From NCBI RefSeq assembly GCF_009914755.1, contig NC_060928.1: a stretch of 64,000 nt of DNA. One strand, written 5' to 3'. The notes under the pieces are model-generated. The model saw nothing but the letters and a program-made list of their open reading frames with translations. It was not told the DNA's origin and did no database searches. Positions 18,901-28,450 of the stretch are shown piece by piece. A program made the translations under genes and the position numbers. Position 1 is the stretch's first letter; the number at the start of each line of letters is the position of its first letter. This DNA comes from the human T2T-CHM13v2.0 reference genome, Homo sapiens.

Positions 18901-19163
18901 TCTGACTGGAGAGAAGACTGAGATGAGGAAAGAAATTTCTGAATCAGTACCATGCCTTTTGTTTGTTTGTTTATTTATTTGTTTTTCTTCCTTCTCAGAA
19001 TTACTAAAAGAATAGAATACCAAAAAGGGAACAATGATGGCCGAGTTTCCTCTTAGAGGACAGTACTGATCCATCTGTGTCTTTGCGTATGGTTGTGAAG
19101 GTGATACAGGCCAGGTTTACCATCCATCTGACCCTTCATCATAACAAACAAACCTATGTTCTT

Positions 19164-20131
19164 TGTGGGGAAAAGCAAGAGAGATCAGATTGTTACTGTG
19201 TCTGTGTAGAAAGAAGTAGACATAGGAGACTCCATTTTGTTATGTACTAAGAAAAATTCTTCTGCCTTGAGATTCTGTTAATCTATGACCTTACCCCCAA
19301 CCCCGTGCTCTCTGAAACATGTGCTGTGTCAACTCAGAGTTGAATGGATTAAGGGTGGTGCAAGATGTGCTTTGTTAAACAGATGCTTGAGGGCAGCATT
19401 CTCCTTAAGAGTCATCACCACTCCCTAATCTCAAGTACCCAGGGACACAAAAACTGTGGAAGGCCGCAGGGACCTCTGCCTAGGAAAGCCAGGTATTGTC
19501 CAAGGTTTCTCCCCATGTGATAGTCTGAAATATGGCCTCATGGGAAGGGAAAGACCTGACCGTCCCCCAGCCCGACACCCGTAAAGGGTCTGTGCTGAGG
19601 AGGATTAGTAAAAGAGGAAGGAATGCCTCTTGCAGTTGAGACAAGAGGAAGGCATCTGTCTCCTGCCTGTCCCTGGGCAATGGAATGTCTCGGTATAAAA
19701 CCCGATTGTATGCTCCATCTACTGAGATAGGGAAAAACCGCCTTAGGGCTGGAGGTGGGACCTGCGGGCAGCAATACTGCTTTGTAAAGCATTGAGATAT
19801 TTATGTGTATGCATATCTAAAAGCACAGCACTTAATCCTTTACATTGTCTATGATGCAAAGACCTTTGTTCACGTGTTTGTCTGCTGACCCTCTCCCCAC
19901 AATTGTCTTGTGACCCTGACACATCCCCCTCTTTGAGAAACACCCACAGATGATCAATAAATACTAAGGGAACTCAGAGGCTGGCGGGATCCTCCATATG
20001 CTGAACGCTGGTTCCCCGGGTCCCCTTATTTCTTTCTCTATACTTTGTCTCTGTGTCTTTTTCTTTTCCAAATCTCTCGTCCCACCTTACGAGAAACACC
20101 CACAGGTGTGTAGGGGCAACCCACCCCTACA
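19164..20131 (+). promoter_or_regulatory. HML-2 LTR (LTR5_Hs type), 968 bp
   Basis: TG...CA termini and the canonical 968-bp length. TATAAAA at 19694, ATGCAAAG (OCT4-type motif) at 19854, AATAAA at 19956. Many CpGs are retained. Confidence 0.96.
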
Positions 20132-20133
20132 TC

Positions 20134-20151
20134 TGGTGCCCAACGTGGAGG
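20134..20151 (+). other. Primer-binding site, tRNA-Lys
   Basis: TGGTGCCCAACGTGGAGG lies 2 nt after the LTR end. Confidence 0.92.
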
Positions 20152-20236
20152 CTTTTCTCTAGGGTGAAGGTACGCTCGAGCGTGGTCATTGAGGACAAGT
20201 CGACGAGAGATCCCGAGTACGTCTACAGTCAGCCTT

Positions 20237-20245
20237 ACGGTAAGC
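20237..20245 (+). promoter_or_regulatory. HML-2 major splice donor
   Basis: ACG|GTAAGC in the leader just upstream of the gag ATG, the expected position. Confidence 0.75.
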
Positions 20246-20274
20246 TTGTGCGCTCGGAAGAAGCTAGGGTGATA

Positions 20275-21302
20275 ATGGGGCAAACTAAAAGTAAAATTAA
20301 AAGTAAATATGCCTCTTATCTCAGCTTTATTAAAATTCTTTTAAAAAGAGGGGGAGTTAAAGTATCTACAAAAAATCTAATCAAGCCATTTCAAACAGAA
20401 GAAGATAGCGTTTCAGTTTCTGATGCCCCTGGAAGCTGTATAATAGATTGTAATGAAAAGACAAGGAAAAAAATCCCAGAAAGAAACGGAAAGTTTACAT
20501 TGCGAATATGTAGCAGAGCCGGTAATGGCTCAGTCAACGCAAAATGTTGACTATAATCAATTACAGGAGGTGATATATCCTGAAACGTTAAAATTAGAAG
20601 GAAAAGGTCCAGAATTAGTGGGGCCATCAGAGTCTAAACCACGAGGGCCAAGTCCTCTTCCAGCAGGTCAGGTGCCCGTAACATTACAACCTCAAAAGCA
20701 GGTTAAAGAAAATAAGACCCAACCGCCAGTAGCTTATCAATACTGGCCGCCGGCTGAACTTCAGTATCGGCCACCCCTAGAAAGTCAGTATGGATATCCA
20801 GGAATGCCCCCAGCACCACAGGGCAGGGCGCCATACCCTCAGCCGCCCACTAGGAGACTTAATCCTACGGCACCACCTAGTAGACAGGGTAGTGAATTAC
20901 ATGAAATTATTGATAAATCAAGAAAGGAAGGAGATACTGAGGCATGGCAATTCCCAGTAACGTTAGAACCGATGCCACCTGGAGAAGGAGCCCAAGAGGG
21001 AGAGCCTCCCACAGTTGAGGCCAGATACAAGTCTTTTTCGATAAAAATGCTAAAAGATATGAAAGAGGGAGTAAAACAGTATGGACCCAACTCCCCTTAT
21101 ATGAGGACATTATTAGATTCCATTGCTCATGGACATAGACTCATTCCTTATGATTGGGAGATTCTGGCAAAATCGTCTCTCTTACCCTCTCAATTTTTAC
21201 AATTTAAGACTTGGTGGATTGATGGGGTACAAGAACAGGTCCGAAGAAATAGGGCTGCCAATCCTCCAGTTAACATAGATGCAGATCAACTATTAGGAAT
21301 AG
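20275..21302 (+). pseudogene. gag: HML-2 gag, truncated in capsid, with an in-frame matrix deletion and a +1 frameshift
   Basis: MGQTKSKIKSKYASYLSF... at 20275. NLIK is joined directly to PFQTEED. The A7 run at 20467-20473 shifts the frame. The Gag frame continues to ...IDADQLLGI. Confidence 0.95.
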
Positions 21303-21388
21303 AACAAAATGGAGTCTCCTATGTCTACTTCTTTCTACACAGACACAGTAACAATCTGATCTCTCTTGCTTTTCCCCACATTATATGA
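20453..21388 (+). CDS. gag: 311-aa open frame: Gag SP1/p15 plus capsid N-terminal part, fused to an antisense-U3-encoded tail (translation unproven)
   Basis: ORF track. Contains the PTAP late-domain motif and the CA start PVTLEPMPPG. The C-terminal EQNGVSYVYFFLHRHSNNLISLAFPHII is mostly from the inverted LTR piece. Confidence 0.45.
   Translation: MKRQGKKSQKETESLHCEYVAEPVMAQSTQNVDYNQLQEVIYPETLKLEGKGPELVGPSESKPRGPSPLPAGQVPVTLQPQKQVKENKTQPPVAYQYWPPAELQYRPPLESQYGYPGMPPAPQGRAPYPQPPTRRLNPTAPPSRQGSELHEIIDKSRKEGDTEAWQFPVTLEPMPPGEGAQEGEPPTVEARYKSFSIKMLKDMKEGVKQYGPNSPYMRTLLDSIAHGHRLIPYDWEILAKSSLLPSQFLQFKTWWIDGVQEQVRRNRAANPPVNIDADQLLGIEQNGVSYVYFFLHRHSNNLISLAFPHII
21303..21380 (-). repeat. Inverted copy of LTR nt 1-78 (first copy)
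   Basis: Exact reverse complement of 19164-19241. Confidence 0.97.
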
Positions 21389-21586
21389 GGACATTATTAG
21401 ATTCCATTGCTCATGGACATAGACTCATTCCTTATGATTGGGAGATTCTGGCAAAATCGTCTCTCTTACCCTCTCAATTTTTACAATTTAAGACTTGGTG
21501 GATTGATGGGGTACAAGAACAGGTCCGAAGAAATAGGGCTGCCAATCCTCCAGTTAACATAGATGCAGATCAACTATTAGGAATAG

Positions 21587-21664
21587 AACAAAATGGAGTC
21601 TCCTATGTCTACTTCTTTCTACACAGACACAGTAACAATCTGATCTCTCTTGCTTTTCCCCACA
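21587..21664 (-). repeat. Inverted copy of LTR nt 1-78 (second copy, forms the element end)
   Basis: Exact reverse complement of 19164-19241. Abuts the TSD. Confidence 0.97.
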
Positions 21665-22149
21665 GTTCTTCTTTGAGTGAAAAAATACAGTGCAGGCAGT
21701 TGTAATTGTCTCTCAGTGAAAGGTAGGCACTAGGATACTGAGTTAGATTTACTGAAATGAGTCCTCAGAACAGCACAACATGGAGTATACAAGTCAGACA
21801 TGTCTTCAAAGTTCTGGAAGACATTTCATCAAAAGCAGAAACTTAAACCCAATTTTAATCTGCTTTGTGTCCATTATATTTCCTGTCTGTTGACATGGAC
21901 ATCCTCCTTTTCTCTTGCACCTGACTTATTACAACAAGTCTAGGTCTGAATCAGTTATTCCACCAAGAATCCTAGAAAGGTAGATTTTTGAAATAATCAC
22001 CATCTTTTCAAATTTCAAATATCAAGTCATAGATTTGACAAACTGAATTCAGAGCTCTTTTGAATAAATCCTTATTTTCTGGTTCTTTCATCTCCTGTAA
22101 CCTCAAGTGAAACTTATCCATCAATTTTTCACTTGTGCCTACATCTAAG

Positions 22150-22535: not shown

Positions 22536-23212
22536 TGAGAGGTGAAGCCAGCTGGACTTCTGGTTCAGGTGGGGACTTGGAGAACTTTTCTGTCTAGCTA
22601 AAGGATTGTAAACGCACCAATCAGCACTCTGTAAAAACGTACCAATCAGCGCTCTGTGTCTAGCTAGAGGATTGTAAATGCAGCAATCAATACTCTGTAA
22701 CAACACCCCAATCAGCACTCTGTAAAATGGATCAATAAGTGGAATGTGGGCAGGGCCAAATAAGGGAATAAAAGCTGGCCACCCCAGCCAGCAGTGGCAA
22801 CCCTTACATGCTGTGGAAGCTTTGTTCTTTCTCTCTTCACAATAAATCTTGCTGCTGCTCACTCTTTGGGTCTGCACTACCTTTATGAGCTGTAACACTC
22901 ACTGCGAAGGTCTACGGCTTCACTCCTGAAGTCAGTGAGACCATGAACTCACTGGGAGGAACAAACAACTCTGGACATGCCACCTTTAAGAGCTGTAACA
23001 CTCACTGTGAAAGTCTGCGGCTTCACTCCTGAAGTCAGCAAGACCATGAACCCACTGGAAGGAAGAAACTCCAGACACATCTGAACATCTAAAGGAACAA
23101 ACTCCAGACACACCATCTTTAAGAACTGTAACACTCACCGCGAGGATCCACAGCTTCATTCTTGAAGTCAGCAAGACCAAGAACCCACCGGAAGGAATAA
23201 ATTCCAGACACA
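22536..23212 (+). promoter_or_regulatory. 5' LTR12-type LTR with tandem CCAAT repeats
   Basis: TGAGAGGTGAAGCCAGCTGG...CCAGACACA. Repeated CACCAATCAGCACTCTG units, AATAAAA at ~22767, AATAAA at 22841, and repeated GTAACACTCAC...GAAGTCAG units in U5. Confidence 0.93.
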
Positions 23213-23215
23213 CTT

Positions 23216-23233
23216 TGGCGACCATGAAGGGAC
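23216..23233 (+). other. Primer-binding site, tRNA-Arg
   Basis: TGGCGACCATGAAGGGAC directly follows the 5' LTR and is near-complementary to a tRNA-Arg 3' end. Confidence 0.85.
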
Positions 23234-24180
23234 TGTCACCAAGCAGTGAGTACCATCAGACCCCTTTCACTTGCTATTCTGTCCTATTTTTCCTTAGAAT
23301 TTGGGGGCTAAATACCAGGCACCTGTTTGCCAGTTAAAAGCGACTAGCACGGCCACCAGACTAAAGACATGGGTGTCAGGCTTTCTGGGAAAGAGCTCTC
23401 TAACAACCCCTGACTCTTCAGAGTTGGGAGCATTAGTTTGCCGGGAACCAGCTTCTGCTTTCCCTGTACTTCTGGGCTGAGCCAAGGGTAGACAGAGAGG
23501 AAAGCCATTCAGCTCCGGGGTCCCAACAACAACTTGGGTGACCCTGTGACCATGAGTGGAACTCTCAAAGTCATGTCACCCAAGCGAGACTCGCTCATCT
23601 ATCCTATCTATCCTGACCCTTGCCTCCTGGGTCCTAATGCCTGTCAGACAAACTTCCTCTCACCTCTCTTCTCTGAGGCTAGTCCCGCTTCCGAAAACCA
23701 CTCCCTGTTTCTGGTGCTTTTCTACTTTCTCCTATAAGAATGATTTCTAGTATAAACTCCAGGACTCTATTCCCTTCATTAGACACCCGGGCTCACTAAT
23801 CACAAAGACATAATTTTTGCCCAAAGTCCCATCGGGGTGGTGGGGACTATCTTATCCGGAATTTTAGGATCCCTCCTCAGACTAGCAGGCCTAACAAAAG
23901 CTATTCCTGGAGCTAGGATACAGGGAGCTTCAGAAATGGTATCCTTCCTATTCAAGTGAGGACAAAAGGTGTCACTCTTCCAACCCTGGAGATCCCTTCC
24001 CTCCCTCAGGGTATGGCTGTCCACTTCATTTTTGGGGTATAACATCTTTATAGGACAGAGGTAAGGTCCCAATACTAACAGGAGAATGCTTAGGACTCTA
24101 AAAGTTTTTTGAGAATGCATCGGTAAGGGCCACTAAATCTGACCTTCCTCAGTCCTCCTTGTGGTCTAGGAGGAAAACTA

Positions 24181-24415
24181 GTGTTTCTGCTGCTGCGTTG
24201 ATGAGTGCAACTCTTCTGATCAGCAGGGTCCAGGGACCATTGCAGGTTCTTAGGCAAGAGGTGTTCCTGCTGCTGTGTTGGTGAGTGCAACTATTCCAAT
24301 CAGCAGGGTCCAGGGACTGTTGTGGGTTCTTGGGTAAGAGGTGTTTCTGCTGCTGCGTTGGTGAGCACAACTATTCTGATCAGTAGGGTCCAGGGACCAT
24401 TGAGGGTTCTTGGGT
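24181..24415 (+). repeat. Three 80-bp tandem repeats in the ERV9 leader
   Basis: Units start GTGTTYCTGCTGCTG at 24181, 24261 and 24341. Each contains ATCAGYAGGGTCCAGGGAC. Confidence 0.9.
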
Positions 24416-24462
24416 GGGGGAGAAACAAACAAACCAAAACTGTGGGCTGTTTTGTCTTTCAG

Positions 24463-25923
24463 ATGGGAAACACTCAGACACCAACAAGCTCACCCTTGAA
24501 ATGCATCCTAAGCCATTGGGACCAATTTGACCCACAAACCCTGAAAAAGAGGCAGCTCAATTTTTTTCTGCACTATGGCTTGGCCCTGATATTCTCTCTC
24601 TGATGGGGAGAAATGGCCACCTGAGAGGAGTATAAATTACAATACTATCCTGCAGCTTGACCTTTTCTGTAAGAGGGAAGGCAAATGCAGTGAAATACCT
24701 TATGTCCAAGCTCTCTTTTCATTGAAGAAGAATACACAACTATGCAAAGCTTGCAATTTACAACCCACAGGAGGACCTCTCAGCTTACCCCCATATCCTA
24801 GCCTCCTTATAGATCCCCTTCCTATTAATGATAAGCCTCCTCTAATCTCCCCCACCCAGAAGGAAACAAGCAAAGAAATCTCCAAAGGACCACAAAAACC
24901 CCTGGGCTATCAGTTTTGTCCACTTCAAGCTGTAGGGGGAGGGGAGTTTGGCCTAACCAGGGTACATGTCCCCTTCTCCTTCTCTGATTTAAAGCAGATC
25001 AAGGCAGACCTGGGGAAGTTTTCAGAAGATCCTGATAGTTATATAGATGTCCTACATGGTCTAGGGCAAAACTTCGATCTCACTTGGAGAGATGTCATGC
25101 TACTGTTAGATCAAACCCTGGCCTTTAATGAAAAGAATGTAGCTTTAGCTGCAGCCCGAGAGTTTGGAGATACCTGGTATCTTAGTCAAGTAAATGATAG
25201 AATGACAGCCAAAGAAAGGGACAAATTCCCTACTGGTCAGCAAGCCATCCTCAGTATGGATTCCCACTGGGACCTCGACTCAGATCATGGGGACTGGAGT
25301 CGCAAACATCTGTTGACCTGTGTTCTAGAAGGACTAAGAATAATTAGGGAAAAGGCCATGAATTAGTCAATGATGACCACCATAATTCAGGGAAAGAAAG
25401 AAAATCCTTCTGCCTTCCTCAAGTGGCTATGGGAGGCCTTAAGAAAACATACTCCCCTGTCACCCAACTCACTTGAGGGTCAATTGATTCTAAAAGATAA
25501 GTTTATTACCCAATGAGCCACAGACATCAGGAGAAATCTCCAAAAGCGAGCCCTGGGCCCTGAACAAAATCTGGAGGCATTATTAAACCTGGCAACCTCG
25601 GTGATCTATAATAAGGACCAACAGGAACAGGCCCAGAAGGAAAAGTGAGATCAGAGAAAGGCGCAGCCTTAGTCATGGCCCTCAGACAAAAAAACCTTGG
25701 TGGTTCAAAGAGGACAGAAAATGGAGCAGGCCAATCACCTAATGGGGACTGTTATCAGTGTGATTTGCAAGGACACTTTAAAAAAGTTTGTCCAGTGAGA
25801 AACAAGCTGCCTCCTCGCCCATGTCCACTATGCTGAGGCAATCACTGGAAGGTGCACTGCCCCAGAGGACAAAGTTTCTCTGGGCCAGAAGCCCCCAACC
25901 AGATGATCCAACAACAGGACTGA
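24463..25923 (+). pseudogene. gag: ERV9 gag with multiple stops and frameshifts
   Basis: MGNTQ... start, PPY late motif, CA segment [25 protein letters not shown], zinc knuckle CYQCDLQGHFKKVC. Confidence 0.92.
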
Positions 25924-26156
25924 GGGTGCCCGGGGAAAGTGCCAGCTTATGTCATCACCCTCACTGAGCCCCAGGTACATATAACCATTGAGGGCCAGGA
26001 AATTGACTTCCTCCTGGACACTGGTGCAGCTTTTTCAGTGTTAATCTCCTGTCCCAGACAGCTGTCCTCAAGGTCCGTTACCATCTGAGGAATCCTGGGA
26101 CATCCTGTATCCAGGTATTTCTCTTACCTCCTCAGTTGTAATTGGGAGACTTTGCT
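25924..26156 (+). pseudogene. pro: ERV9 protease, N-terminal part
   Basis: FLLDTGA active-site motif at 26008-26028. Confidence 0.88.
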
Positions 26157-26340
26157 ACAGATAGTAAGTATGCTTATCTAATCCTACATGCCCATGCTGC
26201 AATATGGAAAGGAAGGGAGTCCCTAACCTCTGGGGGAACCCCCATTAAATACCACAAGGAAATCATGGAGTTCTTGCATGCAGTGCAAAAACCCAAGGAG
26301 GTGGCAGTCTTACACTGCTGAAGCCATCAAAAAGGGGAAG
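26157..26340 (+). pseudogene. pol: pol RNase H fragment (RT deleted), followed by a GA-rich tract to ~26520
   Basis: TDSKYAYLILHAHAAIWK directly follows the truncated protease. Confidence 0.8.
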
Positions 26341-27129
26341 GAGAGAGGAGAACAGCAGCATAAGCAGCTGGCAGAGGCAGGGAAAGACCAGCAGAAAGGA
26401 AAGAGAGAAAGAGAAAGTCAGACAGAGAGAGGAAGAGACAGAGACAAAGAGGGAGTCAGAAAGAGAGAGACAAAGAAGAAGTCAAAGAGAAAGAGAGATG
26501 GAAGTAGTAAAGAAAAAAACCGTGTATCCTATTCCTTTAAAAGCCATGGTAAGTTTAAAACCTATAATTGATAACTGAAGGTCTTCTCTGTGACCCTGTA
26601 ACACTCCAATACCACCTTGTTGACAGTGTAAACAAGGGCATAGCCCGAAAGCACTGAGGCCACTGACAACCAGTAGCCTTCCTATCAAAAATCCTTAACC
26701 AAGCAGGTTTCCTAACAAGGGACCTAAATCTTAAGGTCCAACCAGACATAGGAGGAGCTCCCTTCAGGACAGGATGATAGATGGTTCCTCCCAGGCGATT
26801 AAGGAAAAAGACACAATGGATATTCAGTAAGTGATAAGGAAACTCTTACAGAAGCAGAGTTAGGAAAATTGCCTAATAATTGTCTGCTCAAACATGCAAG
26901 CTGTCTGGAATCAGCTAAACCTTAAAGTACTTACAGAATCAGGAAGGAGCCATCTATACCAATTCTAAGTTAATATAGACTGAATGAGGTTTTATTAATA
27001 GCAAAGAAAAATTAAAATCCCAGACTTACAAGGTTTTCAACTACAGTAAAGTTTGCTAAAAGTTAACAGTGTAACATGTATTATCCTACTACCACACACT
27101 CTCAAAGGATTTCTTAGACAGTTTACAAG

Positions 27130-27672
27130 AAATGATGAAATCTATCCTTACTCTACAATCCCACATAGACTCTTTGGCAGCAGTGACTCTCCAAAATTGC
27201 CAAGGCCTAGACCTCCTCACTGCTGAGAAAGGAGGACTCTGCACCTTCTTAGGGGAAAAGTGTTGTTTTTACACTAAACAGTCAGGGATAGTACGAGATG
27301 CCACCCGGCATTTACAGGAAAAGGCTTCTGAAATCAGACAACACCTTTCAAACTCTTATACCAACCTCTGGAGTTAGGCAACATGGCTTCTCCCCTTTCT
27401 AGGTCCCGTGACAGCTGTCTTGCTATTACTTGCCTTTGGGCCCTGTATTTTTAACCTCCTTGTCAAATTTGTTTCCTCTAGGATTGAGGCCATCAAGCTA
27501 TAGATGATCTTACAAATGGAACTCCAAATGAGCTCAACCAACAACTTCTACCGAGGACCCCTGGATCGACCCACTTGCTGTTTGGTTGGCCTAGAGGGTT
27601 CCCCTCTGGAGGACACTACCACTGCAGGGCCCTTTCTTCACCTCTATCCAGTAGGAAGTAGCTAGAGTGGTC
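27130..27672 (+). pseudogene. env: ERV9 env transmembrane subunit remnant
   Basis: Immunosuppressive-domain motif LQNCQGLDLLTAEKGGL plus CX6CC (CTFLGEKCC). Premature stop at 27375-27377. Confidence 0.92.
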
Positions 27673-27710
27673 ATTGCCCAATTCCTAACAGCAATTGGGG
27701 TGTCCTGTTT

Positions 27711-27720
27711 AGAGGGGGGA
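27711..27720 (+). other. Polypurine tract
   Basis: AGAGGGGGGA immediately before the 3' LTR. Confidence 0.85.
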
Positions 27721-27721
27721 T

Positions 27722-28429
27722 TGAGAGGTGAAGCCAGCTGGACTTCTGGTTCAGGTGGTGACTTGGAGAACTTTTCTGTCTAGCTAAAGGATTGTAAATG
27801 CACCAATCAGCACTCTGTAAAAATGCACCAATCAGCACTCTGTGTCTAGCTAAAGATTGTAAATGCACCAGTTAGCACTCTGTAAAAACGCACCAATCAT
27901 CACTCTGTAAAATGGACCAATCAGCACTCTGTAAAATGGATCAATCAGTGGGACATGGGAGGGGCCAATAAGGGAATAAAAGCTGGCTACCCCAGCCAGC
28001 AGTGGCAACCCTCTCGGGTCTCTTCCATGCTGTGGAATATTTGTTCTTTTGCTCTTCACAATAAATCTTGCTGCTGCTCACTCTTTGGGTCCGCACTACC
28101 TTTATGAGCTGTAACACTCACTAGGAAAGTCTGTGGCTTTACTCTTGAAGTCAGCAAGACCACGAACCCACCAGGAGGAACAAACAACTCTGGACGCACC
28201 ACCTTTAAAAACTGTAACACTCACTGCAAAGGTCTGCGGCTTCACTCCTGAAGTCAGCAAGACCATGAACCCACCAGAAGGAAGAAACTCCAGACACACG
28301 TGAACATCTGAAGGAACAAACTACAGATACACTATTTAAGAATGGTAACACTCACTGCGAGGGTCCACGGCTTCATTCTTGAAGTCAGTGAGACCAAGAA
28401 CCCACTGGAAGGAATAAATTCCAGACACA
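27722..28429 (+). promoter_or_regulatory. 3' LTR12-type LTR
   Basis: Colinear with 22536-23212, with one additional CCAAT unit. Confidence 0.93.
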
Positions 28430-28432
28430 TTT

Positions 28433-28450
28433 TGGCAATCCAGATGGGAC
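28433..28450 (+). other. Second PBS-like (tRNA-Arg 3'-end complement) after the 3' LTR
   Basis: TGGCAATCCAGATGGGAC sits at the same 3-nt spacing from the LTR end as the 5' PBS. Confidence 0.75.

What the first reader, a model, noticed from the sequence alone, without database searches (positions are those of the whole stretch)
21097..21664. Perfect 284-bp duplication whose breakpoint lies exactly at the att CA
Seen: two identical units (gag 206 bp plus inverted U3 78 bp). The internal junction is ...TTTTCCCCACA|TTATATGAGG, so the exact LTR terminus is joined to gag with no TSD bases included. Inference: random slippage rarely breaks exactly at an integrase end, so this may be an integrase-made joint (autointegration into viral DNA) followed by chromosomal integration. 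A TCCCC microhomology just before both junctions (CTCCCC|TTAT vs TTCCCCACA|TTAT) allows an alternative slippage model. The repeat could also vary in copy number now.
Basis: partly seen in the sequence, partly recalled or inferred. Interest (0 to 1): 0.7.

Follow-up and report, generated by a model that had tools for sequence, protein, structure and literature searches.

The report
Known HERV-K124 provirus with inverted end
The repeat is real but belongs to an already described, broken human endogenous retrovirus (HERV-K124), whose odd right end was likely made by copying and repair errors around the time the virus inserted rather than by its integrase.

Summary
The perfect 284-bp tandem repeat is real (21097-21380 / 21381-21664). 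It is the right end of HERV-K124 (HML-2, 4q32.1). Shin 2013 described it with the same 968/1171/78inv/206/78inv layout and TSD GTTCTT, so GRCh37 also has two units and it is not a CHM13 artefact. The element is present in 584 of 584 haplotypes of a pangenome preprint, which does not count the units.

Junction anatomy added here: the gag|inverted-U3 joint and a 168-bp gag deletion both have imperfect homology only on their right side (7 and 5 of 6000 random pairs score as well). This fits a plus strand primed at the PPT jumping onto sense gag during reverse transcription. K126 shows the same kind of jump. At the duplication joint, the two bases after CA are those an unprocessed U3 end would carry. 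A free viral end, re-copied or ligated as a repair flap, explains the exact breakpoint better than autointegration, which would need three att ends. The homology support for this step is weak (64 of 2099 sites), and a later duplication stays possible.

Verdict: known locus, refined mechanism, low interest.

The parts
19158..19163 (+). Left target-site duplication GTTCTT
   Evidence: same TSD in Shin 2013 Table S3
19164..20131 (+). Complete 968-bp 5' LTR (TG...CA) of HERV-K(HML-2) K124
   Evidence: 96.4-99.3% identical to 29 other LTRs picked by best match; start equals chr4:164009164 in the pangenome table
20134..20151 (+). Primer-binding site directly after the LTR (label recalled)
   Evidence: same position and core in other proviruses
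20275..21302 (+). Broken gag: first frame closes after 91 codons; the gene is cut off inside capsid
20386..20387 (+). Junction D: 168-bp deletion in gag between imperfect direct repeats; homology to the right of the crossover
   Evidence: among the 75 matches only this locus and one 86% identical older element span it
21097..21302 (+). Unit 1, gag (capsid) part, 206 bp
21302..21303 (.). Junction A: gag joined to inverted U3; 11 matches, 2 mismatches and 1 gap to the lost gag on the right side
21303..21380 (-). Unit 1, inverted U3 positions 1-78
   Evidence: 100% match to 19164-19241
21380..21381 (.). Junction B: U3 att CA joined back to gag 21097, no TSD bases; the next two bases equal those of an unprocessed U3 end
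21381..21586 (+). Unit 2, gag part, 206 bp, identical to unit 1 in CHM13
   Evidence: 1 mismatch in hg19
21587..21664 (-). Unit 2, inverted U3 1-78; forms the right end of the element and a 78-bp terminal inverted repeat with the left end
21665..21670 (+). Right target-site duplication GTTCTT

Best explanation
This is the known provirus HERV-K124, whose inverted-U3 end was likely made by a reverse-transcriptase template switch, and whose 284-bp repeat was likely made at the free viral DNA end at or just before integration by polymerase re-copying or flap ligation, not by integrase. Step 1 (inferred, about 0.8): a plus strand primed at the PPT ran 78 nt, jumped by imperfect homology onto sense-strand gag and copied leftwards, probably skipping 168 nt at a second imperfect repeat. 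Normal completion then gave a short linear DNA with a U3 att end at both sides. Step 2 (shown: 6-bp duplication against TG and CA; inferred: concerted integrase action on both U3 ends). Step 3 (inferred, about 0.65): the right end was duplicated once. Either repair synthesis across the integration gap displaced about 284 nt of viral strand and the flap was ligated instead of cut, or the run-off top strand slipped back. Both put the joint exactly at the viral terminus with no TSD bases. I slightly prefer the flap route because it needs no invasion of duplex DNA; the sequence cannot separate the two.
For: Junction A has homology only on the right: score 14, reached by 7 of 6000 random pairs; left side score 3, P 0.25. 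The product keeps the U3 letters in the homologous tract, so the U3 strand was the primer (same continuation in 12 of 17 loci; the other 5 lacked the exact anchor). The observed site is the only distinct site in a 3.2-kb relative where the last 20 nt of U3 1-78 pair that well (-10.2 kcal/mol). Junction D points the same way (5 of 6000). K126 has an LTR plus an 18-nt PBS copy joined through 8 shared bases to antisense internal sequence that stops at the PBS border: the same kind of jump in the same family. A 6-nt duplication is the HML-2 norm (Lee and Bieniasz 2007, passages). Junction B has zero microhomology with the chromosomal flank and 2 nt with the PPT-side bases. Plus-strand strong-stop switching between co-packaged genomes is proposed for HIV-1 (PMC9278108, passages). 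Loss of FEN1/Rad27 gives duplications at 3-12 nt repeats (PMC13644597, one passage).
Against: The homology at junction B is modest: 64 of 2099 positions score as well even with two extra bases, and the duplex calculation did not pair the terminal bases. How many PPT-side bases stay on HML-2 linear DNA could not be checked (Brady 2009 not held). The copies show 0 copy-specific differences in CHM13, where 1.7-2.4 are expected if all are as old as the insertion (P 0.09-0.18). Both units share one substitution (21183/21467) found in only 1 of 17 relatives. Both points lean mildly to a later duplication. A 284-nt flap is far longer than the yeast cases I recall (up to about 100 bp). The U5 end and the inverted U3 end share the last 3 bases, so the TSD alone does not prove that integrase used the U3 end. 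One-sided homology is also compatible with DNA-level repair. Nothing here was observed directly.
Confidence: 0.55

Rival explanations
1. The 284-bp unit was duplicated long after integration by a replication slip. The 78-bp terminal inverted repeat could fold into a stem whose base lies exactly at TG/CA and so guide the breakpoint.
For: Units identical in CHM13 (P 0.09-0.18 if as old as the insertion). One near-private substitution is shared by both units. The inverted repeat ends exactly at the termini.
Against: No microhomology with the chromosomal flank at junction B. An unguided break at that one base is roughly a 1-in-several-hundred event (my estimate). hg19 has two units with 1 mismatch. 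No polymorphism is listed in 80 people typed with flanking primers, although that PCR was scored for presence, solo LTR and empty site.
Confidence: 0.22
2. One reading: integrase joined a processed U3 CA end into viral gag DNA (autointegration), and the product then integrated into the chromosome.
For: The joint is exactly at CA with no inserted bases. The 2-nt match to the unprocessed end has about a 6% chance rate.
Against: It needs three att ends, two behind the same junction A, which was seen only here. That means two identical aberrant molecules, or a half-site reaction plus extra replication. Ordinary autointegration gives deletion or inversion circles (established chemistry, recalled). 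An integrase joint would not predict the PPT-side bases or the TCCCC offset match.
Confidence: 0.1
3. A normal provirus integrated first. Later a replication fork switched template at the 3 bases shared by the U5 end and the inverted U3 end, copied 78 nt of U3 and switched again into gag, deleting most of the provirus while keeping the TSD. This may be close to the 'LTR inversion and template switching' of Shin 2013, whose figure I could not see.
For: Shared terminal ACA plus an offset CCCC. The right-sided homology at junction A fits this direction too. Subramanian 2011 lists the locus as shared with chimpanzee.
Against: It needs two aberrant switches, one confined to the last 3 bases of the LTR. 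No full-length or solo-LTR allele in 584 of 584 haplotypes. Three rearrangements within 1.3 kb of a young element are simpler as one faulty reverse transcription. K126 shows the reverse-transcription route exists in this family.
Confidence: 0.12
4. Assembly artefact of T2T-CHM13.
For: The two copies are 100% identical.
Against: The same layout is in hg19, with one mismatch between copies.
Confidence: 0.01

Closest known systems
HERV-K124 / HML-2 4q32.1 (Shin 2013 PMC3625200; Subramanian 2011 PMC3228705)
   Same: Same locus, same segment lengths 968/1171/78 inverted/206/78 inverted, same TSD GTTCTT; Shin proposes LTR inversion plus template switching.
   Different: Nothing in structure. In the parts I read they give no junction-level homology and call the mechanism unresolved. 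The two papers disagree on human-specific versus chimpanzee-shared.
Kahyo 2017 'long TSD' list (PMC5488345)
   Same: Lists the same 206-bp pair at 4q32.1.
   Different: Treats it as a putative 206-bp duplication flanking the 78-bp LTR piece; the true TSD is the 6-bp GTTCTT outside the element.
HERV-K126 (7q22.2)
   Same: LTR inverted against the internal region, U3 end outward; joint consistent with a plus-strand DNA jumping to a sense template.
   Different: Whole LTR plus PBS copy jumped, only one att end, no 6-bp TSD, no terminal duplication.
Aberrant HIV-1 proviruses with one host-joined end (Varadarajan 2016, PMC5041404)
   Same: A free viral 3' end primes on viral DNA through short homology and appends viral sequence.
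   Different: Those lose the short TSD at the aberrant end; K124 has a clean 6-bp TSD and CA at both ends.
HERV element with inverted LTR ends 'resembling a DNA transposon' (Hughes and Coffin 2002; title only seen, paper not held)
   Same: Cited by Shin as precedent for LTR inversion in HERV-K.
   Different: Could not be compared in detail.
Shared-LTR tandem arrays such as K108 (PMC13648407)
   Same: Tandem duplication in an HML-2 locus.
   Different: Those arise by unequal LTR-LTR recombination and repeat a whole provirus; here the unit is 284 bp with unique junctions.

Membership tests
HERV-K(HML-2), young LTR5Hs type | 968-bp LTR nearly identical to young HML-2 LTRs | tested here: met
   96.4-99.3% to 29 LTRs, best 7 differences in 968
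HERV-K(HML-2), young LTR5Hs type | HML-2 gag/capsid after the PBS | tested here: met
   PDB HML-2 capsid E 2e-74; 8-29 differences in about 916 bases to 17 other copies
HERV-K(HML-2), young LTR5Hs type | Human-specific insertion (empty site in apes) | not testable with these tools
   Shin 2013 says human-specific, Subramanian 2011 says chimpanzee-shared; no ape genome available
HERV-K124 locus | Position, segment lengths and TSD | tested here: met
   chr4:164009164 = window 19164; lengths and GTTCTT match
Integrase-made chromosomal insertion | TG...CA ends directly against a 5-6 bp duplication | tested here: met
   6-nt norm; caveat: the last 3 bases are shared with the U5 end
Autointegration product | att CA joined directly to internal viral DNA | tested here: met
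   junction B; not specific, since the next two bases also match an unprocessed end
Autointegration product | Second viral end joined 5-6 bp away on the other strand (deletion or inversion circle geometry) | tested here: not met
   no second internal att joint in the element (self-comparison)
Reverse-transcriptase template switch | Short homology between donor 3' end and acceptor, donor letters retained | tested here: met
   junctions A and D
Reverse-transcriptase template switch | Arises before integration (present in the founding allele) | not testable with these tools
   only one haplotype is held; the pangenome table gives 'fragment 584/584' without structure
Flap-ligation duplication (rad27/FEN1 type) | 3-12 nt direct repeat at the ends of the duplicated unit | tested here: inconclusive
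   5+2 matches around a 3-nt bulge; 64 of 2099 positions as good; terminal pairing not in the minimum-energy duplex
Variable-number tandem repeat | Copy number varies among haplotypes | not testable with these tools
   two units in CHM13 and hg19; unit counts not given in the texts read

The most novel reading that the evidence does not exclude
K124 is a germline fossil of a single faulty infection: a plus strand jumped onto sense gag to give a DNA with two U3 att ends, integrase inserted it normally, and host gap repair ligated a 284-nt viral flap, duplicating the viral end. This would be the viral-side mirror of the long target duplications seen at other HML-2 sites. K126 would be a second fossil of plus-strand jumping, making such jumps a recurrent route for HML-2 endogenisation.
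Probability: 0.3. Interest if true: 0.45.

Novelty: already known. Interest (0 to 1): 0.22.

Why it matters
The locus and its duplication have been in print since 2013, the element is defective and intergenic, and no function is suggested. What remains is mechanistic: Shin 2013 left the origin unresolved. The junction homologies give a concrete order of events and a cheap test (unit counts in existing long-read and archaic data). If right, it shows that an HML-2 DNA with two U3 ends could be integrated in the germ line and that integration repair can duplicate the viral end. It also corrects the listing of the 206-bp pair as a long TSD.

Tried and rejected
Assembly artefact: rejected from hg19 descriptions.

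A parental provirus carrying junction A: none among the 40 best of 1047 candidates; this is a lower bound.

Inherited 168-bp deletion: none of the closely similar copies among 75 matches spans it; one 86% identical older element on chr13 does.

Simple TCCCC slippage from the processed or integrated end: it would lose ACA, and 387 of 2099 positions score as well.

A post-integration change at LTR position 79 hiding a 2-nt microhomology at junction A: K124's base is the common one (23 of 29 close LTRs; 6 of 29 carry the base that would give the microhomology). A second co-packaged genome remains possible but untestable.

RNA structure of the repeat: none beyond shuffles (z 1.04).

Dating by copy identity: uninformative below about 3-6 My depending on rate.

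Papers: Brady 2009 and Hughes and Coffin 2002 were not held. PMC10871260 and PMC4379556 gave nothing on structure. Earlier scan findings were not available.

Full report
Observation. Tandem Repeats Finder and an exact extension give two identical 284-bp units, 21097-21380 and 21381-21664, with no shared base beyond either boundary. The last 78 bp of each unit are the exact reverse complement of 19164-19241, the first bases of a complete 968-bp LTR at 19164-20131. The first 206 bp encode HML-2 capsid. The whole element is 2501 bp and is flanked by GTTCTT on both sides, directly against TG and CA.

Identity. This is HERV-K124 at 4q32.1. Shin 2013 (PMC3625200; I read passages, part 2 of 5 of the text, Table S3 and one row of Table S4; Figure 1B only as legend) prints the same lengths and TSD for hg19, marks no polymorphism, calls the mechanism 'not clearly resolved' and suggests LTR inversion plus template switching. 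Subramanian 2011 (passages) lists the locus as chimpanzee-shared, in conflict with Shin. Kahyo 2017 (parts 2-3 of 4, one supplement row) lists the 206-bp pair with 1 mismatch in hg19. A 2026 pangenome preprint (abstract, passages, part 8 of 10 of the supplement; its data archive was not visible and may hold per-haplotype sequence) gives chr4:164009164-164011582, 'fragment 584/584', with no solo-LTR or non-carrier call and no count of the units. The artefact reading is excluded.

Junction A (21302|21303, gag to inverted U3). Other copies continue gag here with a stretch that matches the inverted U3 at 11 positions with 2 mismatches and 1 gap; BLAST runs 13 bases past the junction for that reason. 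The continuation was the same in 12 of 17 loci, and 5 lacked the exact anchor. An anchored score of 14 on the right was reached by 7 of 6000 random pairs; the left side is at chance (P 0.25). In a 3.2-kb relative the observed site is the only distinct site where U3 59-78 pairs that well. The product keeps the U3 letters, so the strand carrying U3 1-78 was the primer (inference). That is what a plus strand started at the PPT would be.

Junction D (20386|20387). A 168-bp gag deletion (168 in 3 of 6 relatives, 165 in 1, anchor missing in 2) also has its homology on the right (5 of 6000). No closely similar copy among 75 matches spans it. It fits leftward synthesis on a sense template but could be a later event.

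A second case. K126 on chr7 has a full LTR and an 18-nt PBS copy joined through 8 shared bases to antisense internal sequence, which ends at the PBS border (donor view from 2 copies). This is the same kind of jump, made by full plus-strand strong-stop DNA (inference). Switching of that DNA between co-packaged genomes is proposed for HIV-1 (PMC9278108, passages).

Junction B (21380|21381, the finding). The joint has no homology with the chromosomal flank. At the inverted PPT|U3 border of 4 of 4 other proviruses, CA is followed by TTT; junction B has CA followed by TT. The joint can therefore be read as a processed end or as an unprocessed end with 2 shared bases, with TCCCC pairing across a 3-nt bulge. 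The support is modest: 387, 153 and 64 of 2099 positions score as well for CA, CA+1 and CA+2 ends, and the minimum-energy duplex left the terminal bases unpaired. The length of the unprocessed HML-2 end could not be checked.

Mechanism. Autointegration needs three att ends, two behind a junction found only here among the 40 candidates scored, and its ordinary products are circles (recalled). A free end needs only one junction A. After strand transfer, the viral 5' end at the right side is unjoined; over-long displacement synthesis and ligation of the flap would copy the terminal 284 nt with the joint exactly at the viral end. FEN1/Rad27 loss gives duplications at 3-12 nt repeats (PMC13644597, one passage), and FEN1 is only tentatively linked to integration repair (PMC3104679, passages). 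A slip of the run-off top strand gives the same product. Host-primed aberrant ends in HIV-1 lose the short TSD (PMC5041404, passages), unlike K124.

Evidence against. Seven near-private substitutions lie in 1855 single-copy bases. At that rate the repeated segments should show 2.4 copy-specific differences, or 1.7 after allowing for CpG; CHM13 shows 0 (P 0.09-0.18). Both units share a substitution seen in 1 of 17 relatives. hg19 has one mismatch. The 78-bp terminal inverted repeat ends exactly at TG/CA and could guide a later break. The U5 end and the inverted U3 end share their last 3 bases, so a post-integration inversion could also keep the TSD. I give 0.55 to the combined early model, 0.22 to a later duplication, 0.12 to a later inversion and 0.10 to autointegration.

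Novelty. The locus, the inversion and the duplication are known. I did not find the junction-level reading, the match to the unprocessed end or the K126 parallel in searches. The library lacks most subscription papers, including Hughes and Coffin 2002 (title only), which may hold a similar model. No gene or annotated element lies at the site, and gag is broken. Interest 0.22.

Noticed in passing
G000 chr7:106062272-106067173 (L023, L044, L056): HERV-K126: LTR plus an 18-nt PBS copy joined by 8 shared bases to antisense internal sequence that ends at the PBS border; it looks like mis-jumped plus-strand strong-stop DNA. The 12-13 bp that Shin 2013 calls L1 sequence may be this PBS copy.
   Followed up: partly
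L013 (chr13:25723794-25723893): An older HERV-K-like element (81-86% identical) spans the same gag deletion site, perhaps an independent loss at the same imperfect repeat or a shorter gag type.
   Followed up: partly
window 22591-28450: A second, older LTR pair (89% identical over 300 bp, 5219 bp apart, 66- and 103-bp internal repeats, an 80-bp repeat between them); resembles LTR12/ERV9 (label recalled). Largely unmasked in the NCBI file.
   Followed up: no
L038 and L039 (chr11:63518001-63520543): Two HML-2 LTRs in the same orientation 2343 bp apart, 98.2% and 96.4% identical to this LTR, with different flanks.
   Followed up: no
window 19164-21664: Published sources disagree on whether the locus is human-specific (Shin 2013) or shared with chimpanzee (Subramanian 2011); its LTR is about 99% identical to LTRs of human-specific copies such as K103 and K119.
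   Followed up: partly
L007, L019, L023 versus L003-L006, L008: Two PBS sequence variants occur among young HML-2 copies.
   Followed up: no
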